64,000 nt of DNA from a virus (taxonomy: Duplodnaviria; Heunggongvirae; Uroviricota; Caudoviricetes), in IMG/VR virus record IMGVR_UViG_2920292642_000002, positions 19,431-83,430 of that record; one strand, written 5' to 3'. The notes below the pieces were generated by a model, which saw nothing but the letters and a program-made list of their open reading frames with translations, made no database searches and was not told the DNA's origin. The position numbers and the translations under genes were made by a program. Of this stretch, positions 49,846-64,000 are shown piece after piece; positions within the stretch are counted from its first letter, which is position 1, and each line of letters begins with the position of its first letter.

Positions 49846-49927
49846 GCGTTAACCTTGCTGGCGATCGCCACTTGCATTTCGTGCGCAATGCATTATTCTG
49901 TATCAGTCAACGCAACAGGAAAGAAAA

Positions 49928-50149
49928 ATGAGCAAGGAACCTCCCTTCCTCGACTGGGACGCGATCGAGACCGAGATCGCCGACACCAATCGCAAGGCGT
50001 GGGACGCCGAAAACACCCCGGAGAAGATCGCGGCGCGCAAGGCCAAGTCTGAAGCCGAGTTCGAGCGCGGAGTCCGTAACGGCTGGTGGGACAAGGACGG
50101 CAATTCCCTCCAGCCCGAGGAGCCGGACGAGGAGGAGGACGAGGAATAA
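49928..50149 (+). CDS. cassette small protein (73 aa, acidic C-terminus)
   Basis: preceded by TTGCAT...TATTCTGTATCAGTCAACGCAACAGGAAAG leader. Confidence 0.5.
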   Translation: MSKEPPFLDWDAIETEIADTNRKAWDAENTPEKIAARKAKSEAEFERGVRNGWWDKDGNSLQPEEPDEEEDEE

Positions 50150-50286
50150 GACGCCGGCCGTTAACCATTCCGGGGTAAGGTTAACGCGTGCCGGCCGCGC
50201 CCGGCGTTAACCTTGCTGTCCAGATTCGCTTTACAAATCCGGAGGCGTCGCCTAAGGTGCTCTGGTCAACGCAACCGGAGGACCCC

Positions 50287-50613
50287 ATGAGCAAGCGATC
50301 CGACAAGGCAGCGGCCAAGCTGTTCCACCAACTGTTTCCCGGCGTCGGCTGGGATTACACCGACCACAAGGCCAAGCCGCTGCTGCGCGCCGCGTTCGCC
50401 CTTTACGAATCGGAGTGGAAGACCACCCAGCCTCAGGCGTTCAGGATTGAGCGCTGGGAGTGGCCGGCTAAGGCGTTCAAGAGCGACGATCCATATGTTT
50501 TCGACGCGCATGAGCCGTGGACGGTGCTTTTCCGCGAGGTCAAGATGCTGCACGACGCTCACCGCGAGACAAGCGGATACCCGCGCACGCTGGCGGACCG
50601 GATGCCCCGGTGA
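50287..50613 (+). CDS. cassette small protein (108 aa)
   Basis: promoter TTTACA-N17-TAAGGT and leader GTCAACGCAACCGGAGG upstream. Confidence 0.5.
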   Translation: MSKRSDKAAAKLFHQLFPGVGWDYTDHKAKPLLRAAFALYESEWKTTQPQAFRIERWEWPAKAFKSDDPYVFDAHEPWTVLFREVKMLHDAHRETSGYPRTLADRMPR

Positions 50614-50726
50614 TGACCTACGAAATCACCACGGCGCTTACCTTCCTGCTGATCCTCAAAGTGCCGCTGCTGCTCTGGATCGTCCAGTTCACGATGGACG
50701 TGGACTCCGGTCGCATCAAGCTCTGA
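50613..50726 (+). CDS. hydrophobic micro-protein (37 aa, MTYEITTALTFLLILKVPLLLWIVQF...)
   Basis: TGATG coupled to previous ORF; terminator follows. Confidence 0.4.
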   Translation: MTYEITTALTFLLILKVPLLLWIVQFTMDVDSGRIKL

Positions 50727-50907
50727 AACGTCGAGGCCGGGCCAAGCGCCCGGCCTTTTTCGTGCCGGCCGGCGTTAACCATACCCGAGTAAGGTTAACG
50801 GCGAGCGCGCCGGCTGCTCCGAGGCATTAACCTTGCTGTCCAGAATCGCTTTACAAAAGCGGAGGTATGGCCTAAGGTCCTCTGGTCAACGCAACGGAGA
50901 GACCGAC

Positions 50908-51168
50908 ATGTTCAAAATGGAGTTCAGGACCGACAACGCCGCTTTCGTCGACGATCAGGCCGGCGAGATCGACCGGATTTTCCGCGAGGTCGCCGAGCGC
51001 GTCGCGGCGGCGGAAAAGGGCGGCACGATCCGCGATAGCAACGGCAACCGAGTCGGCCGCTGGGAACTGGAGGCCGAAGACGAAGAGGAGGAAAACCCCT
51101 TCGATCCCGAGAGCCCGGAGGGTCGCGCGTGGGAGCGCGGCGACCGTCACCTTGTGGGAGGCAACTGA
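50908..51168 (+). CDS. cassette small protein (86 aa)
   Basis: leader GTCAACGCAACGGAGAG. Confidence 0.5.
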   Translation: MFKMEFRTDNAAFVDDQAGEIDRIFREVAERVAAAEKGGTIRDSNGNRVGRWELEAEDEEEENPFDPESPEGRAWERGDRHLVGGN

Positions 51169-51404
51169 TGACCAAGCGAGAGAAGCGCCGTTTCATCCGC
51201 GAACTGATCAGCGCTGTCCAGAAGTCAATTCTGGATCGTGTCCCAGACATGCCGGAGGAGTGGGACGGTCACGAACTGCGCGCCTATATCGCCGAGAAGT
51301 TCGGCGAAACCGTTGTGACGGTCGGCAGGACCGGGCACTATGGCAAGCCCTACGCCAAGCGGACCCGTGACTATCGCAACACCGTTATCGAGCGCAACCT
51401 ATGA
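51168..51404 (+). CDS. cassette small protein (78 aa)
   Basis: coupled to previous. Confidence 0.45.
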   Translation: MTKREKRRFIRELISAVQKSILDRVPDMPEEWDGHELRAYIAEKFGETVVTVGRTGHYGKPYAKRTRDYRNTVIERNL

Positions 51405-51532
51405 CCCTATTCGTGGAAGGCTACGAGGCCGCGAGACGTGGCGTCAAATGGTGGCGCAATCCCTATCCCTCAGGCTCTGAGGACGCCTACACATGGGACA
51501 AGGGACACACGAGGTTCCGCACCATCGGCTGA
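51401..51532 (+). CDS. small protein (43 aa)
   Basis: ATGA coupling; manual translation. Confidence 0.35.
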   Translation: MTLFVEGYEAARRGVKWWRNPYPSGSEDAYTWDKGHTRFRTIG

Positions 51533-51843
51533 TGCTGCACCGCACAACACGATAAATCAGGAGGTCGGGCCGCGTGCCCGGCCTCTTTTGCATTGCGGTA
51601 AGAGATTGATCTGCAAGGCTGATCTGGTCCAACTCCGAAAAGGTGGAAAAGCGGAGATGTCCGAAATCTGCGGCAAAGTTCGGACCGGCCGGGCCTTAAC
51701 CCTACCCGGTCAAGGTTAACCCGTCGACAGGCTCAGGACGCCCGGCCGCGCCACCTGCCGGCGTTAACCATGGCCGAAATCTCCGCTTGCAAATCATGCG
51801 GGATGCACTATTCTGATCCTGTCAACGCAACGGAGTTTTCGAC

Positions 51844-52077
51844 ATGGCAGTGCATTCCCTCGACACCTTCGGCCAGCCGGACGGCTCGACCCAGATCAAG
51901 GATCGGACCGGCGCACTGGTCGCCACCCTCGACTGGGACGGAGAGGCCAGCGCATGGAAGGTCACCCCGGACAACGACCCGATCGGCTTCCCGCGCCCGG
52001 CACACTTCGCCAGCCGCGTCGCGGCCGAGTTCTGGGTGCTGGCCTACGCCAACGAACTGGAGGCGACCGGGCATTGA
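51844..52077 (+). CDS. cassette small protein (77 aa)
   Basis: leader GTCAACGCAACGGAG. Confidence 0.5.
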   Translation: MAVHSLDTFGQPDGSTQIKDRTGALVATLDWDGEASAWKVTPDNDPIGFPRPAHFASRVAAEFWVLAYANELEATGH

Positions 52078-52149
52078 GCCCGGTCTTTTCCTTGCCCGGC
52101 CGGCGTTAACCCTACCCGAGTAAGGTAAACGCGGCCGGCTGCGGCGTTA

Positions 52150-52225
52150 ACCTTGCTGTCCAGATTAGCTTTACAAGAGCGGAGACCACACCTATGATGC
52201 TCTGGTCAACGCAACGGAGGACGTA
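52150..52225 (+). promoter_or_regulatory. representative cassette promoter and leader: GTTAACCTTGCTGTCCAGATT - TTTACA - N17 - TATGAT - GCTCTG - GTCAACGCAACGGAGG - ATG
   Basis: -35 TTTACA at 52170-52175, -10 TATGAT at 52193-52198, SD GGAGG 7 nt before ATG 52226. Confidence 0.55.
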
Positions 52226-52477
52226 ATGACTAAAGGCCCTATCATCCATGCACCTGTCGTGGTGCGCGAAGCATTCCGCATCGGCGATGAGATCATCGAC
52301 GCCAACCCGATCAGCGGTTTCCATTTCTCCGTCGAGACGATCGGCGGCAAGGTCTACACCGGATGCCCGGAAGAGTACGCCGACAACGGCGTTCTAATTC
52401 TCGACTGCGTTGGCGGCACGCCGACGCCGATCATCGACGTTGCCAAGATCGCCGCCATCACCGTGGTTGAGGTCTGA
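52226..52477 (+). CDS. cassette small protein (83 aa)
   Basis: ORF track. Confidence 0.5.
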   Translation: MTKGPIIHAPVVVREAFRIGDEIIDANPISGFHFSVETIGGKVYTGCPEEYADNGVLILDCVGGTPTPIIDVAKIAAITVVEV

Positions 52478-52480
52478 ACT

Positions 52481-52696
52481 ATGACGCACTATCCCCTTAC
52501 CCACGTCGACGGGAGCGCCGACAAGCGCTACTCGATCGCCAAGGAGTTTTGCGGCCACGCCGATCGCCGCTGGGTGCTCCGCTTCTGCGGCGAGTTCGTC
52601 AAGTCGTCGATCAGCTTTGCCAGCGTCGCCATCCGCGCCGCTGGTCACCGCTCGGCACTCAACGGCCAAGTGATATTTGAGGAGGTCCGGGCATGA
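52481..52696 (+). CDS. cassette small protein (71 aa)
   Basis: ORF track. Confidence 0.45.
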   Translation: MTHYPLTHVDGSADKRYSIAKEFCGHADRRWVLRFCGEFVKSSISFASVAIRAAGHRSALNGQVIFEEVRA

Positions 52697-52887
52697 AGAC
52701 CCAACTGCAACATTTTTGGGAAGCGCATCGCCGCATCGCCGATCTCAATGAAGCGATGCTCGATGCACTCTTCGGACCCAACCCGATCACCGACGCCGAG
52801 CTTCGCGCCTTGATCGAGAAGCGGCCGGAGCGTTACGGCCGCTTTGCCGGCTATCTCGGCACCCGTCAGATGGAGCAGGCCGCGTGA
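52693..52887 (+). CDS. cassette small protein (64 aa)
   Basis: ORF track. Confidence 0.45.
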   Translation: MKTQLQHFWEAHRRIADLNEAMLDALFGPNPITDAELRALIEKRPERYGRFAGYLGTRQMEQAA

Positions 52888-53023
52888 GCGGCCTTTTCCT
52901 TGCCCGGCCGGCGTTAACCTAACCGAGATAAGGTTAACGCGGCGGCGCGGCCGTTAACCTTGCTGTCCAGATTTGCTTTACAGTCTCCCCGGCTCTGCTA
53001 TGGTGTTCTGGTCAACGCAACGG

Positions 53024-53274
53024 AGAGACTCATGTACGTGATCCGCACCCACACTGTCGAACTGGCCGACAAGCGCTTCCTGTCCAGCGACACGCTGACG
53101 GAGATGACGGCGAAGGAACTGCGTACCGCCGAGGCCGAGAACCGGTCCGGCATCGAATACAACATCGTCACCGCCGAGATGGCGCGCCGCTATGTCAAGC
53201 AAGGCATGGTCCATGAAACGGGACTCTGGGTCGACATGGACGGTAAGGTCCGATACGCCAAGGCCGGGGAGTGA
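53024..53274 (+). CDS. cassette small protein (83 aa)
   Basis: internal ATG of ORF 52960..53274 after leader. Confidence 0.5.
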
Positions 53275-53417
53275 TCCCGGCCAACCCTTCACGCGCGTTA
53301 ACCATTCCAAGGTAAGGTTAACGGCCGCTCCGGCGTTAACCTTGCTGTCCAGAATCACTTGCATCTGGCGCAATCTCCGCTATTGTGAGACTGTCAACGC
53401 AACAAAGGAGATCGCTG

Positions 53418-53741
53418 ATGTACATGTTCAAGGACAAGAAGCTGGAGCAGGACCAACGCAAGGTCCAGTTCGGCGACGCCGACAAGTCCACCCTCGCCAA
53501 CATCTGCATGGTCGCGGCCGAGCGCTTTCGGGAGAACGCGGCCGAGTTCCGCAAGTGTATCGACTACAAGCCGAAGGAAGGCGAGTTCCCAATCTTCCCG
53601 ACCGGCGAGGCAGCCAAGCGGCTGGTCGAGCAGTTCGAGCGGCAGGCAGCCGAGGCGGAGAAGTTCCGCGACCTGTTCGACAACGTGGTTCAAATCCCGG
53701 ACATGGTGACGTTTGTCGAGGAAGAGGAGGAGGCCGCGTAA
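53418..53741 (+). CDS. cassette small protein (107 aa, ends EEEEEAA)
   Basis: stop codon lies in loop of terminator hairpin. Confidence 0.5.
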   Translation: MYMFKDKKLEQDQRKVQFGDADKSTLANICMVAAERFRENAAEFRKCIDYKPKEGEFPIFPTGEAAKRLVEQFERQAAEAEKFRDLFDNVVQIPDMVTFVEEEEEAA

Positions 53742-53886
53742 GCGGCCTTTTTCTTCGCCCGCCATTAACCCTAACCGGTCAAGGTAAACGCGGCCGGCCC
53801 CGGCGTTAACCTTGCTGTCCAGATTCGCTTTACAGATGCCGGCGATCTGCTATGGTGCTCCTGTCAACGCAACGCAGGAGTCCTGA

Positions 53887-54436
53887 CATGGATCATCTCG
53901 CTTTCCTCATGCCCATTTTCAATCGCCCAATGGGCGAAAGCTGGATCACCATGGTGATCGATGTCGTGCAAAAGCGCGACGCCGAGGATCACCCGATCAA
54001 CGGCGCAGATGTCGTCTCTTCCTATGAGACCGACAATCCCAAGCTGATCGGACATTCGCTGCGCGATCTGATCATCTCGGCACAGGCAAGCGTCACCGGA
54101 CAAGAGGACTGGTACGCCATTCGCGTCGAATACCGCAACGCCAATACGGTCGACGCCAAGCGCGCCCGAGCCATGGTCAAGACGCTCACCGCGATCGAGA
54201 AAGCGGCCGAGAAACTGCGCGACAAGCAGGGGCTCGACTATCTCACCGCGATCCTGCTGGCCTTCGACAAGGTATTTCCGGGCATGCAACTGGCCGAGAC
54301 TTCCGAGGGCGGCACAGTGCGCGGCTTCTACAATCGCCACAAGTGGCGGTGGACGCCGATCGGCGGCGCAGTCCGGGCAATCCGATCGAGCGCCGAGGAG
54401 GCGCTTGTCAGACACAGGAAGGAGAAGGCCGCGTAA
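53887..54436 (+). CDS. cassette protein (182 aa)
   Basis: ORF 53852..54436 from ATG 53887. Confidence 0.5.
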
Positions 54437-54584
54437 GCGGCCTTTTCCTTGCCCGGCCGGCGTTAACCCTACCCGGTCAAGGTTAACGCGGCCGACTCCG
54501 GCGTTAACCTTGCTGTCCAGATACGCTTTACAAATGCGGAGGTCGTGGTATGGTGCTCCTGTCAACGCAACAAGGAGTTCTGAC

Positions 54585-54962
54585 ATGACCCACATGGAAA
54601 ACCGCATCGCCCGCGCCGAGGCGCTGCTGGCCGAGAAAGGCGTCAACGTCTCGACCAAGGCCAGCCTCAAGATCGCGATCGATCAGGCCGGCGTCGCCCG
54701 CGTCAAGCTGGCCGATGTCAAGAATCACCTCCATCTGGTCTCCATGGCGGTCGAACGTGTGCTGGAGACGGGTCATCGCCTGACCGCGCACGAGTTCAAC
54801 GACGAACGATATTCCAAGGCGGTCACGGCCTGCGCCGCGATCGGTTTTCGCGAGGCGCTGGCCGCGCTCGATCGCGCGATCGAGTTCGCCGAACGCGATC
54901 TGGTCGCGTGGCGCGACGCGTGGAAGAACATCCGCACCATGACCAAGGAACGGGCCGCGTGA
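54585..54962 (+). CDS. cassette protein (125 aa)
   Basis: ORF 54405..54962 from ATG 54585. Confidence 0.5.
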   Translation: MTHMENRIARAEALLAEKGVNVSTKASLKIAIDQAGVARVKLADVKNHLHLVSMAVERVLETGHRLTAHEFNDERYSKAVTACAAIGFREALAALDRAIEFAERDLVAWRDAWKNIRTMTKERAA

Positions 54963-54974
54963 GCGGTCCGCCCC

Positions 54975-55037
54975 ATGGTCGCAGTCTTCCAACTGATCCT
55001 TGCACTTCTACTACTTTACATCCTCTGGCCGCTCTGA
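54975..55037 (+). CDS. hydrophobic micro-protein (20 aa, MVAVFQLILALLLLYILWPL)
   Basis: sits between main ORF and terminator; paralog at 59283. Confidence 0.4.
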   Translation: MVAVFQLILALLLLYILWPL

Positions 55038-55202
55038 CGAGCGGCCTTTGGCTTGCCCGGCCGGCGTTAACCCTACCCGGTCAAGGTTAATACTACCGCA
55101 CCGGCCGCGACCTCGACGCGTTAACCTTACTACCGATCGCCGCTTGCAATTCATGCAGGATGCACTATTCTGATCCTGTCAACGCAAACGGAGGTTTTCA
55201 AA

Positions 55203-55679
55203 ATGTCTGCATGGATGGTTTCTAACGCCCACGTCACCGCAATGATTTCTTGTGCGGTCGCACTGTTCCGGGAGTCCGACTCCTTCTCCGAGTTCCGTCT
55301 TGCTAATGGCAAGACGGCCGCGCGCCACGCTTTGGCCACTGCCGATCTGACCGAGCTTGGCAAGCTCCTGCTTCAGGAGAACGCCAAGAGCCTCGACGCC
55401 CGCTATCCCGGCGATAAGGGGTCAAGCGATGGCGACATGTACCATCAAGAGGAGATCGACTCCTATGTCTACGCCCGCGACAGTCACGCGGCCGGTCAGG
55501 ATGTCGGATTCCTTGCCAAGTTGATTAGCTGTTACGCTTATCAGTCCTGCGAACATGACGGCTGGGAGACCAGCGCGGCCAAGCAATGGTGCGACTGGGC
55601 GCAGGAGGTCGGCATCTCGGTCCTGCCGAGCTACAAGCGCGCACCATGGGGCTATGACGGACCGCCCGCGCCGCGTTGA
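55203..55679 (+). CDS. cassette protein (158 aa)
   Basis: ORF track. Confidence 0.5.
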   Translation: MSAWMVSNAHVTAMISCAVALFRESDSFSEFRLANGKTAARHALATADLTELGKLLLQENAKSLDARYPGDKGSSDGDMYHQEEIDSYVYARDSHAAGQDVGFLAKLISCYAYQSCEHDGWETSAAKQWCDWAQEVGISVLPSYKRAPWGYDGPPAPR

Positions 55680-55864
55680 CACACACGCGGGCCAAAGGAG
55701 GCCGGGCCGATCGCCCGGCCTCTTTTTCGCGCCGCGCCGGCCGTTAACCCTACCCGAGTAAGGTTAACGCCGATCGCCGGCCGCGTTAACCTTTCTGTCC
55801 AGATTTGCTTGCATCTGGCACAATCTCCGCTATTGTGGAATAGTCAACGCAAACGGAGGCTCCC

Positions 55865-56263: not shown

Positions 56264-56331
56264 TCCTGCTGGTCCGACTCTTCGGGCTGGCACTGGCGCT
56301 GCTGTTTGCCTTCATCGTCTTCCAACTATGA
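56260..56331 (+). CDS. hydrophobic micro-protein (23 aa, GTG start, ILLVRLFGLALALLFAFIVFQL)
   Basis: GTGA overlap with previous stop; followed by terminator. Confidence 0.3.
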   Translation: MILLVRLFGLALALLFAFIVFQL

Positions 56332-56514
56332 CCGGGCGCAAGCCCGGTCCTTCCCTCCCCGGCCGGCGTTAACCCTACCCGCGTAAGGTTAACGCGCCGA
56401 GCGCCGGCCGCACCTGTCGGCGTTAACCTTACCTGCCGGCCGGTCAAGTTTCCGCTTGCAATTGTCCAGAATTACTTTACAACTCAAGGAGGTCAACGCA
56501 ACGGAGTTTCCGCG

Positions 56515-58476: not shown

Positions 58477-58703
58477 TCCGACCGGGCCGGGCGAAAAGCC
58501 CGGCCCTCCCCTCCCCGAACGGCCCGGTTTCGACCGGGCCGTTTTGATTCAAACTTTAATCGTCGGCCGGCCGAAATTAACCCTACACGATTAAGGTTAA
58601 CGGAAATCGGAGCCGTCGACGACCTCCGACCGTCCATATTTTCCGCTTGCATCCGTCAAGATTTCCTGTACAAATCAGGAGGTCAACGCAACGGAGATGA
58701 GAC

Positions 58704-59213
58704 ATGCCTGAGTTCATCATGGAAGGAAAGGAACTCCCTGAGTTCCGCAAACTCGATAGCTTCACACAGGGCTACATCCAAGCCCTATTCTTCACCGAAT
58801 GCGAGCCTAACACCACGGCGGACGCCGGACAGGTCGACGACTTCATTCGGCTCTGGGACCCGGAAACGCAATCGAGCCTCCCCGGCGATGTCGGTTTCGC
58901 CGATCTCGACGCCGACTCGCTGGCGCGGATCATCAAGGCCTGTCAGGAGTTCCAAGCGATCTACGAAGCGGACCTCGATACCGTCGACGGCTACGCCCAT
59001 GGCCGACGCGGTGAGACATATTGCCGGGAACACGCCGGCCATGACTTCTGGCTGACCCGCAACGGCCATGGCGCTGGCTTCTGGGACCGCTACAAGTCCT
59101 CAGACGACCAGCCCGACGTGAAGGCGGCATTCGATCGCCTCAGCGATGCGGCCAAGGCCAAGGGCGAATGCTGGGCCACCTATGGCGATGACGGCAAGGT
59201 CTACCAGTCTTGA
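58704..59213 (+). CDS. cassette protein (169 aa)
   Basis: ORF track. Confidence 0.5.
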   Translation: MPEFIMEGKELPEFRKLDSFTQGYIQALFFTECEPNTTADAGQVDDFIRLWDPETQSSLPGDVGFADLDADSLARIIKACQEFQAIYEADLDTVDGYAHGRRGETYCREHAGHDFWLTRNGHGAGFWDRYKSSDDQPDVKAAFDRLSDAAKAKGECWATYGDDGKVYQS

Positions 59214-59282
59214 CGTGATTCCGTCCCGGTGACCGGCGCGACGCCGGGCCGGGATCATGCAGAGCGCGCCGCAAGGTGTTTT

Positions 59283-59345
59283 ATGCAAGCCGTGTTTTCG
59301 CTGATCCTATCGGGTCTATTCCTTTACATTCTATGGCCCTTGTGA
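59283..59345 (+). CDS. hydrophobic micro-protein (20 aa, MQAVFSLILSGLFLYILWPL)
   Basis: paralog of 54975..55037; terminator follows. Confidence 0.4.
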   Translation: MQAVFSLILSGLFLYILWPL

Positions 59346-59518
59346 GGCCGGGCCGGGGAACCTCCCCGGCCTTTCTTTTGCGCCGCGCCGGCCGTTAACC
59401 CTACACCATTAAGGTAAACGCCGCGCCGGCCGCGCGTTAACCTTGCTGCGCGCAACGGCTTGCATCTGTCCAGCGAATCTGTACAAATCAGGAGGTCAAC
59501 GCAACGGAGTTTCACACA

Positions 59519-60103
59519 ATGACCCGCAAGGAATTTGACCTGCACGGCTTCACCGCCGCACTCGCCGCCGTCCTCGGCGGCAAAGATCAGTCCAATTCAG
59601 ACCATTCGATGACGCGGCTTAGCGTCATGACTGGAGCGGTGGAGATGAGCCTGCGCACCGGCTACGGCTCGACATGGAACAAGGTGACGATCTGCCCCTA
59701 TTTTCCATGCCAGCAAGGCTTGAACCACTATGAGCAAATCAAGGTCGACTCGATAACCGTGACCGGCGATCGTGACATAGCGGCCGTGGCCAAGGACGTT
59801 AAGCGGCGCATTCTCGACGGCATCGAACCCAAGCTGGAGGAGGCGCGCGCCCGCGTCGCCGCCCGTGAGACGCTGAAAAGCAGCGTCGCCGAACGTGCGG
59901 CCGATTGGCAAAGGCGTTTCCCCGGACTGCAAGTGAAGATCAGCAGTGATGGAACGGGCGCAGATGTTTATTACAACCGCGCCGGCCGTTATCTCAACGG
60001 CTCAATGACCCGCGATGGTACGCTGAGTCTTCAGCGGGTGTCACTCGACGGGCCTGAGACCTCTGAGGCACTGCTGGCCTTACTGACCGCCGCGCCGCGT
60101 TGA
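59519..60103 (+). CDS. cassette protein (194 aa)
   Basis: ORF track. Confidence 0.5.
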   Translation: MTRKEFDLHGFTAALAAVLGGKDQSNSDHSMTRLSVMTGAVEMSLRTGYGSTWNKVTICPYFPCQQGLNHYEQIKVDSITVTGDRDIAAVAKDVKRRILDGIEPKLEEARARVAARETLKSSVAERAADWQRRFPGLQVKISSDGTGADVYYNRAGRYLNGSMTRDGTLSLQRVSLDGPETSEALLALLTAAPR

Positions 60104-60348
60104 CATCTAAGCGCGGCAACGGCCGGGGATGAGCCAAGCTCTCCCCGGCCTTTTCACGCGTGCACCTGAGACCTGTTAACCATATCCGGGTAAGGTTAAC
60201 GCCGTCCTAACGGGCCGGGACCCTTCGGAATCAAACTCCGGGCCTTTCGAATCGCTGGTTAACTTTATCTCCGCTTTTGTACAGTTTCGCTTGACTTGTC
60301 GCACTCCGGCCCTATCCTCGACCCTGTCAACGCAATGGAGTTCATGAC

Positions 60349-60987
60349 ATGGCCAAGGAAAAGTTTTTGATCATCGCCGAAAAGATGATTCCGGACTGTT
60401 TCGGTGTCTTCTCGGAGACCGCCAATTGCGCGGCGATCGACGCCGGCACCGCTGACCCGTCCGATCCTTATAGCTGGATCGAGGCGAGCTTCGAGATCAA
60501 GCTGGTGCGCTATCGCGAGGCCACCCACATTTGCAGCCTCACCCCGTCCGCTTATTATGTCTGGCTGCAAAACCAGTTTGTCGGCGAGCCGAACGCCGCG
60601 TGGGATCGCGATGGTGATCCTGAGGGTCTGGAGTTCGAAAACGGTGGCGAATGTCACGGCTATGGCACCTATCGCGATGAGTACGATCCGCGCTTCATTT
60701 GCGAGACCTTCACAATCGACACGATGAAGGACCTCCCCGATCCGATGCGCAAGCCGACCGTGCGCAACACCCTGTCACACCGCACCGACAAGGAACAGTC
60801 GGCGCTCGATCGCTATCACCGGGCAATCTGGAAAGCTGCCGAGGAGGCCGCGCGCGAGATGATGTGCAATAGTCTCTGGTGCGACATCCTGAACGTCTAC
60901 ACCTATCGCCAGTGGGAGCGCGACAAGCTGGAGGCCACACGGCGGCGATCATTGGATGAGTCCAAGCGTGCATGGATGAGCCTGTGA
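60349..60987 (+). CDS. cassette protein (212 aa)
   Basis: ORF track. Confidence 0.5.
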   Translation: MAKEKFLIIAEKMIPDCFGVFSETANCAAIDAGTADPSDPYSWIEASFEIKLVRYREATHICSLTPSAYYVWLQNQFVGEPNAAWDRDGDPEGLEFENGGECHGYGTYRDEYDPRFICETFTIDTMKDLPDPMRKPTVRNTLSHRTDKEQSALDRYHRAIWKAAEEAAREMMCNSLWCDILNVYTYRQWERDKLEATRRRSLDESKRAWMSL

Positions 60988-61239
60988 TCAGCATGTGATG
61001 AGATCGCGGGCGCTTCATCCCTCCCCCCGGAGCCGCGCGCCTGCGAGACGCGGGGACCTCCCGCCGAGGTCCCGGCGTTTTCGTTTGCCGGCCGGCGTTA
61101 ACCATACCGAGGTAAGGTTAACGGCTACGCCTGCCCGCGTTAACCAAAGATGCCGGGGACCCTTCGGAATCAAAGATAGGGCCTTGCTATTATTGCAGAA
61201 TGCAATATTCTGATCTGGTCAACGCAACGGAGTTTTCAC

Positions 61240-61524
61240 ATGTCCATCGAAGTCGATACCGTCACTGCGCCGGCCTACTGGGCTTCAGCCCTGATCAATG
61301 GTGATGAGTCCGGCATGGAGGACCACGAGATCAAGGCAATGGAGATGTGGCTGAAAGGTCTCGGCGACTTCTACGTCGTCGACGTTGCCCGCGATGAGGC
61401 CGGGGAGTCGCAGGAGGCGCGCTTCACTTGGAGCTATGAACTGTATGGCGGCACGGCTCAAGGTGGAGACGTTCTCGACTATGTGGTGCACCGAATCGTC
61501 AAGCAGGAGGCCGGCGCGGCTTAG
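61240..61524 (+). CDS. cassette small protein (94 aa)
   Basis: ORF track. Confidence 0.5.
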   Translation: MSIEVDTVTAPAYWASALINGDESGMEDHEIKAMEMWLKGLGDFYVVDVARDEAGESQEARFTWSYELYGGTAQGGDVLDYVVHRIVKQEAGAA

Positions 61525-61751
61525 GCCGAGCCCTTTCCTATCGCTGATCTCGCTGGATGGCGGGAGCGCATGCAGAACCTGATCGAGGGCGGGCCGCGCA
61601 AGCGGCCCTTTCCTTGTGCGGCCGAGGCCGTTAACCTTGACCCGGTAAGGTAAACAAATGCACCGGCCGGCGTTAACCATGTTTCCGAATGGGCCTTGCA
61701 TTTAATGCAGGATGCAATATTCTGCACTGGTCAACGCAACGGAGTTACGAA

Positions 61752-62006
61752 ATGTCCATCACCCAGACCAAAGGCGCGATCATCGCAACCGGCGAGGGCG
61801 TCAGCGTCTTTCAGGCGATCACGATCAAGACCGCCCTGAAGCTCTACGCCAAGACAGGCATCAAGGCCAATCGGGCATACACGCCGAAGGCCATGATGAC
61901 CATGGCCGAGAAGATCACGGGCCAGAAGTTCCGGGCACGGGATTACCTCGGCGCGGTCGCCGGGCTGGAGACGTGGATCGACGAGCGCAAGGAGGCAGGG
62001 GCGTAA
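61752..62006 (+). CDS. cassette small protein (84 aa)
   Basis: ATG in ORF 61689..62006 after leader. Confidence 0.5.
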   Translation: MSITQTKGAIIATGEGVSVFQAITIKTALKLYAKTGIKANRAYTPKAMMTMAEKITGQKFRARDYLGAVAGLETWIDERKEAGA

Positions 62007-62226
62007 GCCCCTCGACCTTGCCTAAAATTTTACCGAAATTTTTTACCGACCGTTAACCATACTCAGGTAAGGTAAACGAAAAGTTAACGCGACCGGCGCA
62101 GGTCGAGGCCGCGCGCCGGCCGCGTTAACGCGCCGTTAACCATGTCCAGAATAGGTCGACAAAGGCGCTTGCAATTCATGCAGGATGCACTAATCTCCGT
62201 CATGTCAACGCAACGGAGATTTGGTC

Positions 62227-62388
62227 ATGAAAAAGAATGTTCTGCACTTCGGACTGGATAGCGGATTCAAGGCGATCGCCCGCGATCACAACGTGACTCG
62301 CCGGACTTTCAAGGGCGAATACGTCACGGTAAAGCCGAGCTTCGCCCGCGTCATCGTCGACGCGATCAAAAACATTTTCGGCCTTTAA
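62227..62388 (+). CDS. cassette small protein (53 aa)
   Basis: manual translation. Confidence 0.4.
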   Translation: MKKNVLHFGLDSGFKAIARDHNVTRRTFKGEYVTVKPSFARVIVDAIKNIFGL

Positions 62389-62400
62389 GGAGGCCGAGAA

Positions 62401-62565
62401 ATGAAGCCGATCCGCTTCGATATCATCGATCGCCACACTGGAAAGAAGGTCGGCGAGGCGACGACTCGGGCAGGGGCGAATCGCTCCGTTGATCGCCGCG
62501 ATAACGCGTATGGCGCATATCGATACTCGGCAAAACCGATCTATGCCGAGGACAAGGCCGCGTAA
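62401..62565 (+). CDS. cassette small protein (54 aa, ends EDKAA)
   Basis: manual translation; stop in terminator loop. Confidence 0.4.
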   Translation: MKPIRFDIIDRHTGKKVGEATTRAGANRSVDRRDNAYGAYRYSAKPIYAEDKAA

Positions 62566-62695
62566 GCGGCCTTTTCTTTTGCCGATCGAGGCCGTTAACC
62601 CGGCGTTAACCATGTCCAGAATGGGTTTACAATCGTCCTTGCAATTCGTGCCGAATGCAATATTCTGTCCTTGTCAACGCAACGGAGTAAGCAAA

Positions 62696-62872
62696 ATGCG
62701 CTGCAAGATTTTCAATCTCTTCGAAGGCGAAATTCTTTTCCGAGTCGGCGAGGCGTTTCACGTCCAGTTGGACAACGGAATCGAAGTCAAGGTCGACGCG
62801 GCCGATGTCGATTTCTTCGCCTACATGCCGACGATCGAACTGGTCGAAGTTGTGGAGTATGTCGCGGCTTAG
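62696..62872 (+). CDS. cassette small protein (58 aa)
   Basis: tail of ORF 62489..62872. Confidence 0.4.
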   Translation: MRCKIFNLFEGEILFRVGEAFHVQLDNGIEVKVDAADVDFFAYMPTIELVEVVEYVAA

Positions 62873-62902
62873 GCCGCGACATTTCAACCGAGGAGGTTTG
62901 AA

Positions 62903-63145
62903 ATGCAGCCTTTCACCCTTTCGATCGAAACCGATGCTGGCACCTATCGGCACGGATTCCATCTCGGCACAATCGAGCGACTCGCGCGCGAACTGGCGGA
63001 GGAGATTTGTCTAAAGCGGAGGCCGCAACGCGGCACGCGAATCGTCACTGTCGCGCTTTGCCGCTTTGAGTCGATCGTCGACGTTTTCGACGGTAAAGAC
63101 TGGTCAAATGCGCTGCTTTCCAAGTTCGCCGAGGAGGCCGCGTAA
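62903..63145 (+). CDS. cassette small protein (80 aa, ends EEAA)
   Basis: ORF track. Confidence 0.5.
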   Translation: MQPFTLSIETDAGTYRHGFHLGTIERLARELAEEICLKRRPQRGTRIVTVALCRFESIVDVFDGKDWSNALLSKFAEEAA

Positions 63146-63265
63146 GCGGCCTTTTCTTTTGTTAACTCGGCGTTAACCATGGCGAGGAGTGGTTTACAAA
63201 AGGACTTGCGGCAATTCGTGCGGCATGCAATATTCACATTGTCAACGCAACTGAGGAGTCACCAA

Positions 63266-63496
63266 ATGCGCCGCTATCATCGTCCTGAAATGCTCCGCCA
63301 AGCCGCCCGCGTCCTCGGGCTGAATCGCACGCGCGATGGCGATCTCCGCCCCATGGTTTATGCTCTCCGCATGCTGCCGCGCCTTAACACTCCTGAGGAG
63401 AATCAGCGACTCGATGCGGCCGTTTACGCAATGCGACATTGGACGGAATTTCAAAACTTGTGCGGCCGTGTTCGAACTGGTCGCGAAACACTCTAA
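63266..63496 (+). CDS. cassette small protein (76 aa)
   Basis: tail of ORF 63179..63496. Confidence 0.45.
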   Translation: MRRYHRPEMLRQAARVLGLNRTRDGDLRPMVYALRMLPRLNTPEENQRLDAAVYAMRHWTEFQNLCGRVRTGRETL

Positions 63497-63530
63497 AAGA
63501 AAGGCCGCGAAAGCGGCCTTTTTCTTTTAC

Positions 63531-63768
63531 TGCACGCGATCGGCCGTCCTGCCGTCCAGAGGCGCGCCTGCACGCGATCGGCCGTCCTGCCGTCCAGAGG
63601 CGCGCCTGCACGCGATCGGCCGTCCTGCCGTCCAGAGGCGCGCCTGCACGCGATCGGCCGTCCTGCCGTCCAGAGGCGCGCCTGCACGCGATCGGCCGTC
63701 CTGCCGTCCAGAGGCGCGCCTGCACGCGATCGGCCGTCCTGCCGTCCAGAGGCGCGCCTGCACGCGTT
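63531..63768. repeat. tandem direct repeat, about 6.3 copies of a 38-bp unit (GCACGCGATCGGCCGTCCTGCCGTCCAGAGGCGCGCCT)
   Basis: perfect head-to-tail copies; each unit carries GTCCAGAGG resembling the promoter-proximal GTCCAGAAT box. Confidence 0.8.
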
Positions 63769-63871
63769 AACCTCTTGTTAACCATGTCCAGTATTGGTTT
63801 ACAAAAGGACTTGTGCCAAATCATGCGCCATGCAATAACACTCTTGTCAACGCAACTGAGGAGTTCAAGAC

Positions 63872-64000
63872 ATGGCCAGCCAAGTTTTCACCGTCACCGC
63901 AGAGTCCGAGGACTATCGCCCCTATCGCCTGACCTTCGTTCGTAGCAACTTCGGCGCTTTCCCCAAACTAACCAAAGTAGAGCGTCAGCAGGACAATGGC
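63872..64000 (+). CDS. cassette protein, 3'-partial at window end (MASQVFTVTAESEDYRPYRLTF...)
   Basis: leader GTCAACGCAACTGAGGAG then ATG. Confidence 0.4.
   Translation, partial: MASQVFTVTAESEDYRPYRLTFVRSNFGAFPKLTKVERQQDNG

What the first reader, a model, noticed from the sequence alone, without database searches (positions are those of the whole stretch)
49855..64000. Tandem array of about 28 autonomous promoter-leader-small ORF-terminator cassettes
From the end of terL to the window edge, almost every gene (50-360 aa, no recognisable families) is its own transcription unit. Each unit has, in order: a GTTAACC-N10-GGTTAAC palindrome; a third GTTAACC half-site fused to GTCCAGAWT; a -35 TTTACA/TTGCAA; a 16-17 bp spacer; a -10 TATGRT/TATTCT; a near-identical leader GTCAACGCAACGGAG; ATG 5-9 nt later; and a GGCCGCG-NAA-GCGGCC plus U-tract terminator. 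This regular, reiterated architecture (at least 25 copies) is far more uniform than ordinary phage early regions. It looks like a dedicated expression platform for a hypervariable cargo of small effector genes (candidate anti-defence / host-takeover genes), possibly under one GTTAAC-binding regulator.
Basis: seen in the sequence. Interest (0 to 1): 0.85.

Follow-up and report, generated by a model that had tools for sequence, protein, structure and literature searches.

The report
CtrA-box promoter cassette array, phage terminal region
Downstream of the terminase gene, a phiCbK-related phage carries at least 22 small transcription units, each built from the same terminator, binding sites matching the host cell-cycle regulator CtrA, promoter and leader; the feature is real and striking, but its core was already published for the sister phage Cp1R7A-A1.

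Summary
The repeated architecture is real but was miscounted. Between 49.4 kb and the window edge there are 22 promoter/leader units, not about 28, carrying 31 complete small genes. The palindrome is GTTAACC-N12-GGTTAAC, not N10.

The window is a relative of Mesorhizobium phage Cp1R7A-A1, in the phiCbK-related group. Its TerL is 100% identical to a protein from a Pseudaminobacter sp. 19-2017 assembly. The array occupies the position of the large direct terminal repeat, which follows terL in this group.

The GTTAAC motifs match binding sites of the host cell-cycle regulator CtrA (half-site TTAACCAT; full box TTAA-N7-TTAAC). Mascolo et al. 2022 showed that CtrA~P binds the promoter of the Cp1R7A-A1 orthologue of window gene 55203-55679, and that a reporter depends on CtrA.

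New here:
- The promoter-proximal half-site lies 58-59 nt upstream of the leader, or one or two helical turns further. This holds in four related phages.
- Between close relatives the palindrome arms are conserved and the centres are not.
- The leader is the unstructured 5' end of the mRNA.
- GTCCAGA is a promoter element found across the whole window.
- The cargo turns over (9 of 31 genes shared with Cp1R7A-A1) and promoters have been swapped.

Verdict: a new member of a known kind. Cargo function is unknown, and no evidence for an anti-defence role was found.

The parts
46566..49379 (+). Intein-containing large terminase gene (937 aa). It marks the upstream border of the array.
   Evidence: 100% identical to the TerL of Pseudaminobacter sp. 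19-2017, with Pfam Terminase_6C plus Intein_splicing; 75% nucleotide identity to terL of Cp1R7A-A1.
49385..49853 (+). Gene-free head of the array. It holds one palindrome at 49385-49410, short direct repeats TTTGGATGAKCATGG at 49512-49597, a 33-bp x3 tandem of palindromes at 49683-49781, a palindrome at 49807-49832 and a proximal half-site at 49848. It is a candidate terminal-repeat boundary or packaging region.
   Evidence: L050 and L053 have a similar layout after terL. In phiCbK, CcrColossus and Lacusarx the terminal repeat starts in or just after terL.
49855..50159 (+). Unit 1. Class-B promoter (TTGCAT-N17-TATTCT), leader at 49906, gene 49928-50149 (73 aa). No terminator.
50160..50757 (+). 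Unit 2. Palindrome 50160-50185, proximal GTTAAC at 50206, GTCCAGA at 50218, class-A promoter, leader at 50265. Genes 50287-50613 and 50613-50726. Terminator 50733-50757.
50774..51587 (+). Unit 3. Palindrome 50774-50799, proximal ATTAAC at 50826, class-A promoter, leader at 50885. Genes 50908-51168, 51168-51404 and 51401-51532. Terminator 51559-51587.
51695..52085 (+). Unit 4. Palindrome 51695-51720, proximal GTTAACCAT at 51763, class-B promoter, leader at 51821. Gene 51844-52077. Terminator 52065-52085, with the stop codon in the loop.
52105..52894 (+). Unit 5. Palindrome 52105-52130, proximal site at 52146, class-A promoter (TTTACA-17-TATGAT), leader at 52205. Genes 52226-52477, 52481-52696 and 52693-52887. 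Terminator 52877-52894, with the stop codon inside the hairpin.
52913..53290 (+). Unit 6. Palindrome 52913-52938, proximal site at 52953, class-A promoter, leader at 53011. Gene 53032-53274. The 3' hairpin lacks a T-tract.
53297..53755 (+). Unit 7. Palindrome 53297-53322, proximal site at 53335, hybrid promoter (GTCCAGAAT, then TTGCAT-N17-TATTGT), leader at 53393. Gene 53418-53741. Terminator 53724-53755, with the stop codon inside the hairpin.
53764..54450 (+). Unit 8. Palindrome 53764-53789, proximal site at 53805, class-A promoter, leader at 53863. Gene 53888-54436. Terminator 54419-54450, with the stop codon inside the hairpin.
54462..55046 (+). Unit 9. Palindrome 54462-54487, proximal site at 54503, class-A promoter, leader at 54561. 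Gene 54585-54962 plus a 20-aa hydrophobic micro-ORF at 54975-55037. Terminator 55027-55046.
55066..55721 (+). Unit 10. Palindrome 55066-55091, proximal site at 55120, class-B promoter, leader at 55178. Gene 55203-55679 is the orthologue of Cp1R7AA1_019, whose promoter was shown to bind CtrA. Terminator 55704-55721.
   Evidence: (49% amino-acid identity). PMC9437464.
55743..56349 (+). Unit 11. Palindrome 55743-55768, proximal site at 55785, hybrid promoter, leader at 55843. Gene 55865-56263 plus a 23-aa micro-ORF at 56260-56331. Hairpin 56330-56349.
56368..57203 (+). Unit 12. Palindrome 56368-56393, proximal site at 56422, class-C promoter (TTGCAA, GTCCAGA in the spacer, TACAAC), leader at 56492. 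Gene 56515-57147 (210 aa, phrog_6186). Terminator 57175-57203.
57220..58544 (+). Unit 13. Palindrome 57220-57245, site at 57280, class-C promoter, leader at 57361. Gene 57391-58476 (361 aa, DUF932). Terminator 58517-58544.
58576..59372 (+). Unit 14. Palindrome 58576-58601, class-C promoter, leader at 58682. Gene 58704-59213 plus a 20-aa micro-ORF at 59283-59345. Terminator 59350-59372.
59394..60153 (+). Unit 15. Palindrome 59394-59419, proximal site at 59436, class-C promoter, leader at 59495. Gene 59519-60103. Terminator near 60121-60153.
   Evidence: The terminator was read directly from the sequence.
60175..61080 (+). Unit 16. Palindrome 60175-60200, site at 60258, promoter TTGACT-N16-TATCCT, leader at 60326. 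Gene 60349-60987. Terminator 61053-61077.
61097..61608 (+). Unit 17. Palindrome 61097-61122, site at 61139, class-B promoter, leader at 61218. Gene 61240-61524 (weak DUF6926 match). Terminator 61591-61608.
61630..62012 (+). Unit 18. Palindrome 61630-61655, proximal GTTAACCAT at 61672, class-B promoter, leader at 61730. Gene 61752-62006. Hairpin 61997-62012 with a weak T-tract.
62052..62573 (+). Unit 19. Palindrome 62052-62077, canonical full CtrA box 62125-62140, GTCCAGA at 62144, class-B promoter, leader at 62204. Genes 62227-62388 and 62401-62565. Terminator 62554-62573.
62594..63156 (+). Unit 20. Full CtrA box 62595-62610, GTCCAGA at 62614, class-B promoter, leader at 62673. Genes 62696-62872 and 62903-63145. 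Terminator 63131-63156.
63161..63523 (+). Unit 21. Full CtrA box 63162-63177, class-B promoter, leader at 63241. Gene 63266-63496. Terminator 63498-63523.
63530..64000 (+). Unit 22. Perfect 38-bp x6.2 tandem repeat 63530-63766 (each copy holds GTCCAGAGG), full CtrA box 63767-63782, class-B promoter, leader at 63846. The gene starts at 63872 and is cut by the window edge.

Best explanation
The region is the accessory-gene block that follows the terminase gene in a phage related to Mesorhizobium phage Cp1R7A-A1 (phiCbK-related siphophages). In this phage group, that position is the large direct terminal repeat.

The block is built from at least 22 composite regulatory modules. Each has the following parts.

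(i) A GC-rich hairpin plus U-tract ends the previous unit. It often contains that unit's stop codon.

(ii) Binding sites that match the host cell-cycle response regulator CtrA follow. They comprise an inverted pair of 9-bp half-sites (GTTAACCnT ... AAGGTTAAC, centres 20 bp apart) and one promoter-proximal half-site (GTTAACC(A/T)T). The proximal site is fixed at about -58 to -53, or one or two helical turns further upstream. In four units a canonical TTAA-N7-TTAAC box takes its place.

(iii) A host sigma-70-type promoter comes next. It appears in three or four sequence classes, and some carry a second conserved element, GTCCAGA or a spacer inverted repeat.

(iv) Transcription is inferred to start at the G of GTCAAC. 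This gives a short (mostly 21-26 nt), A/C-rich, unstructured 5' UTR with a GGAG Shine-Dalgarno sequence.

Proposed mechanism: host RNA polymerase reads each unit independently. Phosphorylated CtrA, bound on one face of the helix upstream of the -35, raises or gates initiation. Expression of the whole set of small accessory proteins is thereby tied to the host's CtrA state, which is the published 'lytic deferment' idea. The terminators insulate neighbouring units. The repeated modules also supply homology for recombination, which explains gene turnover and promoter swapping (PeSL-like).

Shown here: the anatomy, the statistics, the conserved geometry and the phylogenetic footprint.
Shown in the literature for the orthologous promoter of the sister phage: CtrA~P binding and CtrA-dependent reporter activity.
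Inferred: the start sites, activation (rather than repression or delay) at every unit, terminal redundancy in this genome, and any role of the cargo.
For: Identity of the phage:
- The only match in the phage collection is Cp1R7A-A1, with the same gene order.
- There are 26 tRNA genes.
- Translated similarity to Cp1R7A-A1 covers 70% of the non-array window.
- The TerL family includes CcrColossus and Brevundimonas phage Bambus.

Position: in phiCbK, CcrColossus and Lacusarx the terminal repeat begins in or just after terL.

CtrA link:
- PMC9437464 reports terminal repeats rich in CtrA sites in phiCbK-like phages, including Cp1R7A-A1.
- It shows an EMSA shift of the Cp1R7AA1_019 promoter by CtrA~P, lost when the full box is mutated. 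A residual shift was attributed to two orphan half-sites.
- Reporter activity was about 2-fold lower in a ctrA-ts strain.
- Window gene 55203-55679 is the orthologue of that gene.

Motif statistics:
- TTAACCAT: 20 matches against 0.5 expected, 15 in the array and all on the + strand.
- GTTAAC: 62 of 67 copies lie in the array.
- The palindrome: 28 hits against 0.05 expected.
- Four canonical full boxes replace the palindrome/proximal arrangement in units 19-22.

Geometry:
- The nearest exact GTTAAC lies 58/59 nt upstream of the leader in 12 of 22 units, at 68-70 in 6 and at 79-81 in 2.
- Rayleigh R is 0.85 at a 10.5-11 bp period. Over all 60 sites the phase peak is at 10.5 bp.
- The same 58/59 (+10, +20) spacing occurs in Cp1R7A-A1, L050 and L053, although their promoters differ.

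Footprint against the closest relative, L055:
- Palindrome arms: 26 of 27 positions identical.
- Palindrome centres: 6 of 16.
- Proximal site through Shine-Dalgarno: 148 of 159.
- Third codon positions: 68-72%.

Promoters: sigma-70-like hexamers lie 6-8 nt upstream of GTCAAC.
Leader: the first 50 nt of the predicted mRNAs fold at -5.9 kcal/mol, against -13.9 for background windows (p about 1e-12).
Terminators.

Turnover and swapping:
- 9 of 31 cargo genes are shared with Cp1R7A-A1, collinear except for one translocated gene.
- Homology for that gene begins at the leader. The two promoters are of different classes.
- Cassettes cross-match many-to-many between the two phages.
Against: - Canonical CtrA boxes (direct TTAA repeats 11 bp apart) are present in only four units, and are absent from the arrays of L050 and L053.
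- The dominant motif is an inverted half-site pair 19-20 bp apart. No CtrA binding mode is described for this arrangement in the papers read.
- Most CtrA-activated Caulobacter promoters carry the box at -35, and upstream CtrA sites at pilA delay or reduce expression (PMC11264516). The sign of regulation here is therefore uncertain.
- The published reporter effect was about 2-fold and was measured in a heterologous host.
- The promoters have good sigma-70 hexamers and may be largely constitutive.
- Two further conserved elements imply additional, unidentified regulators: GTCCAGA, and the inverted repeat in class-B spacers.
- No transcript data exist.
- Terminal redundancy cannot be checked from a single window.
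Confidence: 0.68

Rival explanations
1. The inverted GTTAACC...GGTTAAC pair is the operator of a dedicated regulator that is not CtrA, either phage-encoded or another host protein. CtrA would use only the occasional full boxes, or none. The array would then be a phage-controlled early regulon switched on or off by that factor.
For: - An inverted repeat of 9-bp arms with a free centre is the classic layout of a dimeric helix-turn-helix operator.
- Its spacing (19-20 bp between centres) is not the 11-bp direct repeat of CtrA.
- The palindrome is conserved across phages whose TerL is only 54-59% identical.
- Other conserved, phage-lineage-specific promoter elements exist (GTCCAGA, spacer inverted repeats), showing that these phages do use further regulators.
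Against: - The arms are exactly the CtrA half-site (G)TTAACC(A/C/T)T. The same half-site recurs singly at a fixed promoter distance, and in four units is replaced by canonical full CtrA boxes.
- The EMSA in PMC9437464 left a residual CtrA shift, which the authors assigned to the two orphan half-sites of this kind of palindrome.
- No DNA-binding family was found among the window proteins scanned.
- The Cp1R7A-A1 'transcriptional regulator' gp042 has no homologue in the window.
Confidence: 0.15
2. The cassettes are primarily mobile recombination modules. Either homologous exchange between the repeated terminator/promoter blocks (as proposed for PeSLs), or site-specific exchange at the palindrome by the phage's 218-aa tyrosine recombinase (integron-like), is the selected function. 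Transcriptional control would be secondary.
For: - Gene content turns over at cassette boundaries: 9 of 31 genes are shared with Cp1R7A-A1, one orthologue is translocated, and its promoter is replaced up to the leader.
- Cassettes form a dispersed repeat family that cross-matches between genomes.
- The palindrome can be read as 9-8-9 (9-7-9 in L050 and L053), the format of tyrosine-recombinase core sites. Some centres recur (ACCCGAGT x4, ACCCGGTC x3).
- A catalytic-domain-only tyrosine recombinase is encoded at 8147-8803 and in Cp1R7A-A1.
Against: - The one junction that can be located lies between the promoter and the leader, not in the palindrome.
- Palindrome centres differ freely between orthologous sites and among sites in one genome. 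That would block strand exchange between most pairs.
- The fixed helical phasing of the sites relative to the promoter points to a transcriptional role.
- Every cassette has its own promoter, unlike integron cassettes.
- The recombinase gene is 41 kb away.
- Homologous exchange is compatible with the best explanation and is included in it as a by-product.
Confidence: 0.1
3. The GTTAAC palindromes, at least the gene-free cluster at 49385-49832, serve DNA packaging, terminus formation or replication (pac or ori-like iterons) rather than transcription.
For: - Five palindromes and several short direct repeats fill a 470-bp gene-free stretch directly after terL.
- That is where the terminal-repeat boundary lies in phiCbK-like phages.
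- L050 and L053 have the same kind of repeat-rich stretch there.
- CtrA is known to bind replication origins in Caulobacter (abstract of PMC8640480, listed).
Against: - The same palindrome recurs before 18 further promoters spread over 14 kb, with positions phased to the promoter. A packaging or origin role does not explain this.
- The last palindrome of the cluster is followed by a normal proximal site, promoter and gene (unit 1).
Confidence: 0.07

Closest known systems
CtrA-binding-site-rich direct terminal repeats of phiCbK-like phages, including Mesorhizobium phage Cp1R7A-A1 (Mascolo et al. 2022, PMC9437464)
   Same: - Same phage lineage and the same position after terL.
- Many small genes of unknown function, with CtrA-type sites concentrated in the intergenic regions.
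- One unit (gene 55203-55679) is the orthologue of the gene whose promoter was shown to bind CtrA~P and to depend on CtrA.
- The Cp1R7A-A1 array has the same cassette plan.
   Different: - The paper scored full 16-bp boxes and reported only 20 predicted sites in Cp1R7A-A1, with 'weaker colocalization'.
- Here the dominant sites are half-sites: 62 GTTAAC in 14.7 kb, arranged as an inverted pair plus a proximal site at a fixed, helically phased distance.
- The parts of the paper I read do not describe the whole module (terminator, sites, promoter classes, GTCCAGA, conserved +1 leader).
- In phiCbK itself the full box sits at the -35. Here a sigma-70 -35 is present and the sites lie upstream, near -55.
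PeSLs (promoter-early stem-loops) of T4-like phages (Arbiol et al. 2010, PMC2839356; Comeau et al. 2014, PMC4122927)
   Same: - Small, conserved composite terminator/promoter motifs, reiterated in hyperplastic regions.
- They flank small ORFs of unknown function and are proposed to mediate modular shuffling by recombination.
- Here the cassettes cross-match between genomes, and a promoter swap ends at the leader.
   Different: - Unrelated phage group and unrelated sequence.
- Here the module additionally carries host-regulator (CtrA-type) sites and a conserved 5' UTR.
- Recombination at the cassettes is inferred from two distant genomes. It is not demonstrated (for example by the excised circles I recall being reported for PeSLs).
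- The array is one contiguous block of 22 units.
Multi-site CtrA promoters such as Caulobacter pilA (PMC11264516)
   Same: Several CtrA full and half-sites lie upstream of one promoter, with cooperative binding and timing effects.
   Different: - pilA has its driving site at -35 and irregular spacing, and its upstream sites repress or delay expression.
- Here no site overlaps the -35, and the spacing is regular and phased.
Host-takeover or pre-early modules in terminal redundancies (Bacillus phage SPO1 gp37-60; T5 first-step-transfer region). This comparison rests on my own knowledge, apart from the T5 remarks in PMC3556154.
   Same: A terminal-repeat location, many short genes of unknown function, and closely spaced strong host-type promoters and terminators.
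   Different: - Those modules are not known to be wired to a host cell-cycle regulator.
- Their promoters are not embedded in a module this uniform.
- Early timing has not been shown for this array.
Start-associated sequences (SAS) of Cluster K mycobacteriophages (my own knowledge)
   Same: A short conserved sequence that includes the ribosome-binding site, placed a few bases upstream of many start codons.
   Different: - Here the conserved block starts at the inferred +1 of a promoter, and it is present only on first genes of units.
- There is no sequence relation.

Membership tests
CtrA-site-rich terminal-repeat gene arrays of phiCbK-related phages | The phage belongs to the phiCbK / Lacusarx / Cp1R7A-A1 lineage. 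| tested here: met
   the only phage hit is Cp1R7A-A1, syntenic; 26 tRNAs; TerL family includes CcrColossus and Bambus; 70% translated coverage.
CtrA-site-rich terminal-repeat gene arrays of phiCbK-related phages | The array lies in the large direct terminal repeat that starts in or just after terL. | tested here: inconclusive
   The position matches: the array starts 6 bp after the terL stop. Terminal redundancy itself needs read coverage or both genome ends, which a single window does not give.
CtrA-site-rich terminal-repeat gene arrays of phiCbK-related phages | Matches to the CtrA motif are concentrated locally in intergenic DNA. | tested here: met
   62 of 67 GTTAAC; TTAACCAT 20 against 0.5 expected; full boxes 14 against 1.8 with up to 1 mismatch, 13 of them in the array; all upstream of promoters.
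CtrA-site-rich terminal-repeat gene arrays of phiCbK-related phages | CtrA~P binds the sites and expression depends on CtrA. | not testable with these tools
   Shown only for the orthologous Cp1R7AA1_019 promoter (PMC9437464). The window promoter of the orthologue is of a different class and lacks the full box.
Canonical CtrA-activated promoter (Caulobacter type) | A TTAA-N7-TTAA box overlaps the -35 region. | tested here: not met
   The nearest site starts 58 nt upstream of the inferred +1, and the -35 is a sigma-70-like CTTGCA/CTTTAC. phiCbK promoters do meet this feature.
PeSL-type mobile regulatory cassettes | A composite of a terminator stem-loop followed by an early promoter, reiterated between variable ORFs. 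| tested here: met
   hairpin plus T-tract, then promoter, in most units; variable ORFs.
PeSL-type mobile regulatory cassettes | The end-points of insertions, deletions and replacements between closely related genomes fall in the cassettes. | tested here: inconclusive
   One translocated orthologue has homology starting at the leader. The only close relative available (L055, 1.6 kb) is collinear. No set of near-identical genomes was found.
PeSL-type mobile regulatory cassettes | T4-like myovirus with the T4-type early promoter consensus. | tested here: not met
   This is a phiCbK-related phage by similarity to Cp1R7A-A1, which the literature describes as a siphophage. The promoter sequences follow the alphaproteobacterial CTTGAC-N17-CTATAT style, a consensus I cite from my own knowledge.
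Integron gene-cassette array | Promoterless cassettes ending in attC sites (57-141 bp imperfect palindromes), next to an intI gene with attI and Pc. | tested here: not met
   Each unit has its own promoter and terminator. The palindrome is 26 bp. The only tyrosine recombinase lies 41 kb away and consists of a catalytic domain alone.
Intrinsic (Rho-independent) terminators | A GC-rich hairpin followed directly by a T-tract at the 3' end of the unit. | tested here: met
   By my reading, 17 of 21 unit ends meet this; 3 hairpins have poor T-tracts and 1 unit has none.

The most novel reading that the evidence does not exclude
The inverted GTTAACC-N11/12-GGTTAAC pair is not simply a CtrA site. It would be the crossover or operator site of a phage-specific system, for example the 218-aa catalytic-domain-only tyrosine recombinase. 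That would make the array an integron-like, self-expressing cassette platform in a lytic phage, in which whole promoter-gene-terminator units are excised and inserted.
Probability: 0.06. Interest if true: 0.8.

Novelty: new member of a known kind. Interest (0 to 1): 0.36.

Why it matters
If the model holds, this phage places about 30 accessory genes under the host's cell-cycle master regulator, through at least 22 separate promoters. That is a far denser wiring than the 20 predicted sites published for its sister phage, and it uses a non-canonical site arrangement that full-box scanners miss.

The fixed -58 geometry and the helical phasing give a directly testable promoter grammar for CtrA acting upstream of a sigma-70 -35.

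The array is also a clean natural case for asking whether reiterated regulatory modules drive gene shuffling outside the T4-like phages.

The biological core, CtrA-site-rich terminal repeats in phiCbK-like phages, is already published, so the gain is refinement rather than discovery.

Tried and rejected
- N10 palindrome spacing: only 2 spurious hits.
- RNA or DNA hairpin role for the palindrome: rejected. Position 8 of the arms is often non-complementary, and the centres diverge freely between orthologous sites while the arms stay fixed.
- Known RNA families: nothing reaches a gathering score. The three sub-threshold hits lie on terminator hairpins.
- Close relatives in IMG/VR: none. Leader-pattern hits are single chance matches, and the TerL search found nothing.
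- Source contig: could not be fetched. Exact-protein look-ups fail for the NCBI proteins, and a specific 28-nt cassette pattern finds nothing in the species-representative genomes. The array beyond 64000 and the terminal redundancy therefore remain unseen.
- Cargo function:
  - Pfam gives only DUF932 and a weak DUF6926 match.
  - PHROGs gives four families of unknown function and one small family labelled 'DNA ligase' that I do not trust.
  - PDB sequence searches are negative.
- CcrM/GcrA idea: a GANTC site overlaps GTCCAGA in only a minority of units, so I dropped it.
- Restriction-site avoidance or decoy idea: GTTAAC outside the array occurs about as often as composition predicts (5 observed against about 7 by my own arithmetic).
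- Phage-encoded CtrA-like or helix-turn-helix regulator: none found among ten window ORFs. The Cp1R7A-A1 'transcriptional regulator' has no homologue here.

Full report
**What is there**

Reading 49.5-64 kb confirms a reiterated design on the + strand. The leader core GTCAACGCAA (up to 1 mismatch) occurs 22 times between 49906 and 63846. The full 15-mer GTCAACGCAACGGAG with up to 3 mismatches gives 25 window-wide matches against 2.6 expected.

The palindrome is GTTAACC-N12-GGTTAAC. This pattern gives 28 hits against 0.05 expected, all between 49385 and 63802.

GTTAAC occurs 67 times in the window, 62 of them in the last 14.7 kb. TTAACCAT occurs 20 times against 0.5 expected; 15 are in the array, all on the + strand.

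A multiple alignment of the 22 upstream regions shows four invariant or near-invariant blocks:
- the proximal CGTTAACC;
- CTT of the -35;
- TA of the -10;
- GTCAA(C)GCAA.

**Units and genes**

I curated 31 complete genes plus one cut by the window edge. They fall into 22 units: 14 with one gene, 6 with two and 2 with three. Mean unit length is 664 bp and 70% of the region is coding.

By my reading, convincing intrinsic terminators close 17 of 21 units. In 8 units the stop codon lies inside the hairpin. Nine proteins end in Ala-Ala, because GCC GCG TAA forms part of the terminator stem and loop.

**Promoter classes**

- Class A: GTTAACCTTGCTGTCCAGAWTnGC-TTTACA-N16/17-TATGGT-N6.
- Class B: CTTGCA-N16/17-CTATTCT-N6, with a conserved inverted repeat in the spacer.
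- Class C: CTTGCAT-cc-GTCCAGA...-TACAAA-N7/8.
- Others: two A/B hybrids and one TTGACT-N16-TATCCT.

The distance from the -10 to GTCAAC places the likely start at the G of GTCAAC. This is an inference; no transcript data exist.

The resulting 5' UTR is mostly 21-26 nt with GGAG 5-9 nt before the ATG. The first 50 nt of the predicted mRNAs are much less structured than other 50-nt windows of the array (-5.9 against -13.9 kcal/mol, p about 1e-12).

**What genome this is**

The only phage record with nucleotide similarity is Mesorhizobium phage Cp1R7A-A1 (131 kb), and the order terL-then-small-genes is the same. The window also holds 26 tRNA genes. Translated similarity to Cp1R7A-A1 covers 70% of the non-array window.

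The 937-aa ORF before the array is an intein-containing large terminase. It is 100% identical to a protein of Pseudaminobacter sp. 19-2017, on a 391-kb contig. Its relatives include the TerL of Caulobacter phage CcrColossus and of Brevundimonas phage Bambus.

In phiCbK the left end of the 10.3-kb direct terminal repeat lies inside terL. In CcrColossus it lies just downstream, and in Lacusarx the repeat follows the terminase genes. The array therefore sits where this group's terminal repeat lies. The redundancy itself cannot be tested from one window.

**The published explanation of the GTTAAC sites**

Mascolo et al. [quoted passage not shown] The consensus quoted in PMC11264516 is TTAA-N7-TTAA. 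These sites lie upstream of genes of unknown function.

The paper reports three results for the promoter region of Cp1R7AA1_019:
- CtrA~P shifts a 123-bp probe.
- Mutating the full box abolishes the main shift. A smaller shift remains, which the authors ascribe to two orphan half-sites.
- A lacZ fusion is almost 2-fold less active in a ctrA-ts Caulobacter strain.

That promoter has the same plan as the window cassettes: palindrome, full box, GTCCAGA twice, promoter, then the leader GTCAACGCAAACGGAG. Window gene 55203-55679 is its orthologue (49% amino-acid identity).

**What this analysis adds**

1. *Geometry.* The nearest exact GTTAAC starts 58 or 59 nt upstream of the leader in 12 of 22 units. 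It starts at 68-70 in six units and at 79-81 in two, which are steps of one helical turn. Rayleigh R is 0.85 at a 10.5-11 bp period. Over all 60 upstream sites the phase peak is at 10.5 bp with R 0.64, although the palindrome arms are not independent of each other.

The same 58/59 (+10, +20) distances recur in three other arrays:
- Cp1R7A-A1;
- metagenomic relative L050 (TerL 59% identical);
- metagenomic relative L053 (TerL 54% identical).

This holds although the promoters of L050 and L053 differ, they lack GTCCAGA and their leader is GTCAACAACGGAG. Their palindrome spacer is 11 rather than 12. A relative with TerL at 34% identity lacks all of these features.

2. *Footprint.* A closer relative (L055, about 84% nucleotide identity in genes) is collinear over two cassettes. 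The comparison gives:

| Segment | Identical positions |
|---|---|
| Palindrome arms | 26 of 27 |
| Palindrome centres | 6 of 16 |
| Inter-site spacers | about 69% |
| Proximal site through Shine-Dalgarno | 148 of 159 |
| Third codon positions | 68-72% |

The palindrome therefore behaves as two protein half-sites with a free centre, not as a hairpin. The promoter-leader block is under stronger constraint than the genes.

3. *Site types.* Canonical full boxes occur only in units 19-22, at -69/-80, where they replace the palindrome/proximal arrangement. This argues that one protein reads both arrangements. A full-box scoring matrix would miss most sites, which may explain why only 20 sites and 'weaker colocalization' were reported for Cp1R7A-A1.

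4. *Other elements.* GTCCAGAW gives 28 matches against 4.2 expected. The GTCAAC leader and GTCCAGA also mark promoters elsewhere in the window, including a complete minus-strand cassette near 19.6 kb. They are general features of this phage's promoters. Only the CtrA-type sites are specific to the array.

5. *Selection on elements.* Within a class, the functional blocks are conserved while the -35/-10 spacers have diverged. The units are therefore not recent copies.

**Turnover**

Only 9 of 31 cargo proteins have a homologue in the Cp1R7A-A1 array. They are collinear except for the gp019 orthologue, which sits elsewhere.

Nucleotide homology for that gene starts at the leader. Direct reading shows a class-B promoter in the window and a class-C promoter in Cp1R7A-A1.

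Cassettes of the two phages cross-match many-to-many, whereas genes match one-to-one. Translated coverage of the array is 34% against 70% for the rest of the window, although 31.5-40 kb is equally variable.

This pattern fits the PeSL model of T4-like phages, in which composite terminator/promoter motifs act as points of exchange (PMC4122927). The evidence here is thin, because no set of near-identical genomes was found.

The phiCbK terminal repeat also carries about 6-7 reiterated promoter-leader blocks. There the CtrA full box lies at the -35, as in typical Caulobacter CtrA promoters (PMC11264516).

**Cargo**

Pfam finds only DUF932 (57391-58476) and a sub-threshold DUF6926 match. PHROGs finds four families of unknown function plus one small family labelled 'DNA ligase' that I do not trust.

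The gp019 orthologue has six relatives among 5.8 billion proteins. The 210-aa protein at 56515-57147 has more than 2,200 relatives and gives a confident model (pLDDT 96), but no informative match to solved structures. The pair formed by the 210-aa protein and the DUF932 protein is conserved in Cp1R7A-A1. Genes of matching size flank the DUF932 homologue in L050 and L053. Nothing bears on an anti-defence role.

**Rivals**

- *A separate regulator for the palindrome (0.15).* It is suggested by the non-canonical inverted geometry. It is weakened by the exact CtrA half-site sequence, the interchange with full boxes, and the residual EMSA shift in the published work.
- *A recombination-site role, including an integron-like reading (0.10).* It would use the 218-aa tyrosine recombinase at 8147-8803. 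It is weakened by the variable centres, the junction located at the leader and the promoter-phased positions.
- *A packaging or origin role for the gene-free cluster at 49385-49832 (0.07).* It may coexist with the best explanation but does not explain the dispersed copies.
- *An assembly artefact.* Excluded by the uniqueness of the units and by four independent relatives.

**Verdict**

The biology is largely already published for the sister phage, so this is a new member of a known kind.

The open points are the inverted half-site pair, the fixed -58 site, GTCCAGA, the +1 leader, stop codons inside terminators and the micro-ORFs. These give it moderate residual interest.

Noticed in passing
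window 54975-55037, 56260-56331, 59283-59345 (and 50613-50726); L050 15053-15110 and 18150-18210; L053 14421-14480 and 20562-20620: Very hydrophobic micro-ORFs of 20-23 aa (e.g. MVAVFQLILALLLLYILWPL, MQAVFSLILSGLFLYILWPL) sit as the last gene of a unit, directly before or overlapping the terminator. The same kind of peptide (...LWPL*/...VWPI*) recurs in the arrays of L050, L053, L055 and Cp1R7A-A1. They look like a conserved family of tiny membrane peptides.
   Followed up: partly
window 63530-63766: A perfect 38-bp tandem repeat, 6.2 copies at 100% identity, lies between a terminator and the CtrA box of unit 22. Every copy contains CCGTCCAGAGG, i.e. the GTCCAGA promoter element. The copy number may be unreliable in an assembly.
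   Followed up: partly
window 8096, 17077, 19658(-), 22980, 31501(-), 33540, 36811, 37835, 44039(-), 44540, plus 13 sites in the array: GTCCAGAW is 6-7 times over-represented (28 matches against 4.2 expected). It lies in promoter-like contexts across the window, either just upstream of the -35 or inside the spacer. It is present in Cp1R7A-A1 and L055 but absent from the arrays of L050 and L053. The factor that binds it is unknown.
   Followed up: partly
window 49380-49850: The gene-free stretch after terL holds direct repeats TTTGGATGAKCATGG (x3-4), a motif AAAATTTGAAACAA shared with L050, and a 33-bp x3 tandem of CtrA-type palindromes. It is a candidate terminal-repeat boundary or packaging site.
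   Followed up: partly
window 46566-49379: The large terminase gene carries an intein (Pfam Intein_splicing, with Hom_end_hint/LAGLIDADG in relatives), as in CcrColossus.
   Followed up: no
window 8147-8803: A 218-aa tyrosine recombinase consisting essentially of the catalytic domain (PF00589, residues 35-209). It has its own GTCCAGA promoter and a GTCAACACAACGGAG leader, and is 70% identical to Cp1R7AA1_140. Its role in a phage group described as virulent or pseudolysogenic is unclear.
   Followed up: partly
class-B promoters, e.g. window 51786-51815, 55143-55172, 61183-61212, 61695-61724, 62169-62198: The -35/-10 spacers of class-B promoters carry a conserved inverted repeat. It is TTGCAT...ATGCAA here, TGCATnATGCA in Cp1R7A-A1, and a different one (TCGCAAAATGCGA) at the same place in L050 and L053. 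It looks like a second, lineage-specific operator overlapping the promoter.
   Followed up: no
window 19590-19690, minus strand: A complete cassette of the same design lies outside the array on the other strand: ATTAACC, GTCCAGATTGA, CTTGAC, a -10, GTCAACACGACGGAG, then ATG.
   Followed up: no
source record: The identical TerL lies on a 391,276-bp contig of Pseudaminobacter sp. 19-2017, close to three times the 131-kb genome of Cp1R7A-A1. This could be a prophage in a replicon, or an assembled concatemer or episome. I could not fetch it.
   Followed up: no
window 31500-40000: A second region of high gene turnover relative to Cp1R7A-A1 (33% translated coverage). It contains leader-type promoters at about 33.5, 36.8 and 37.8 kb.
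   Followed up: no
L062 (phiCbK 1-12000): The phiCbK terminal repeat holds about 6-7 copies of a roughly 70-nt promoter-leader block, (G)TAACCTTTTGTTAACTTCTGGCCTCTAGGGT... followed by a conserved GC-rich leader. The CtrA box lies at the -35. There is also a GGGACCC-rich repeat array near the left end.
   Followed up: partly
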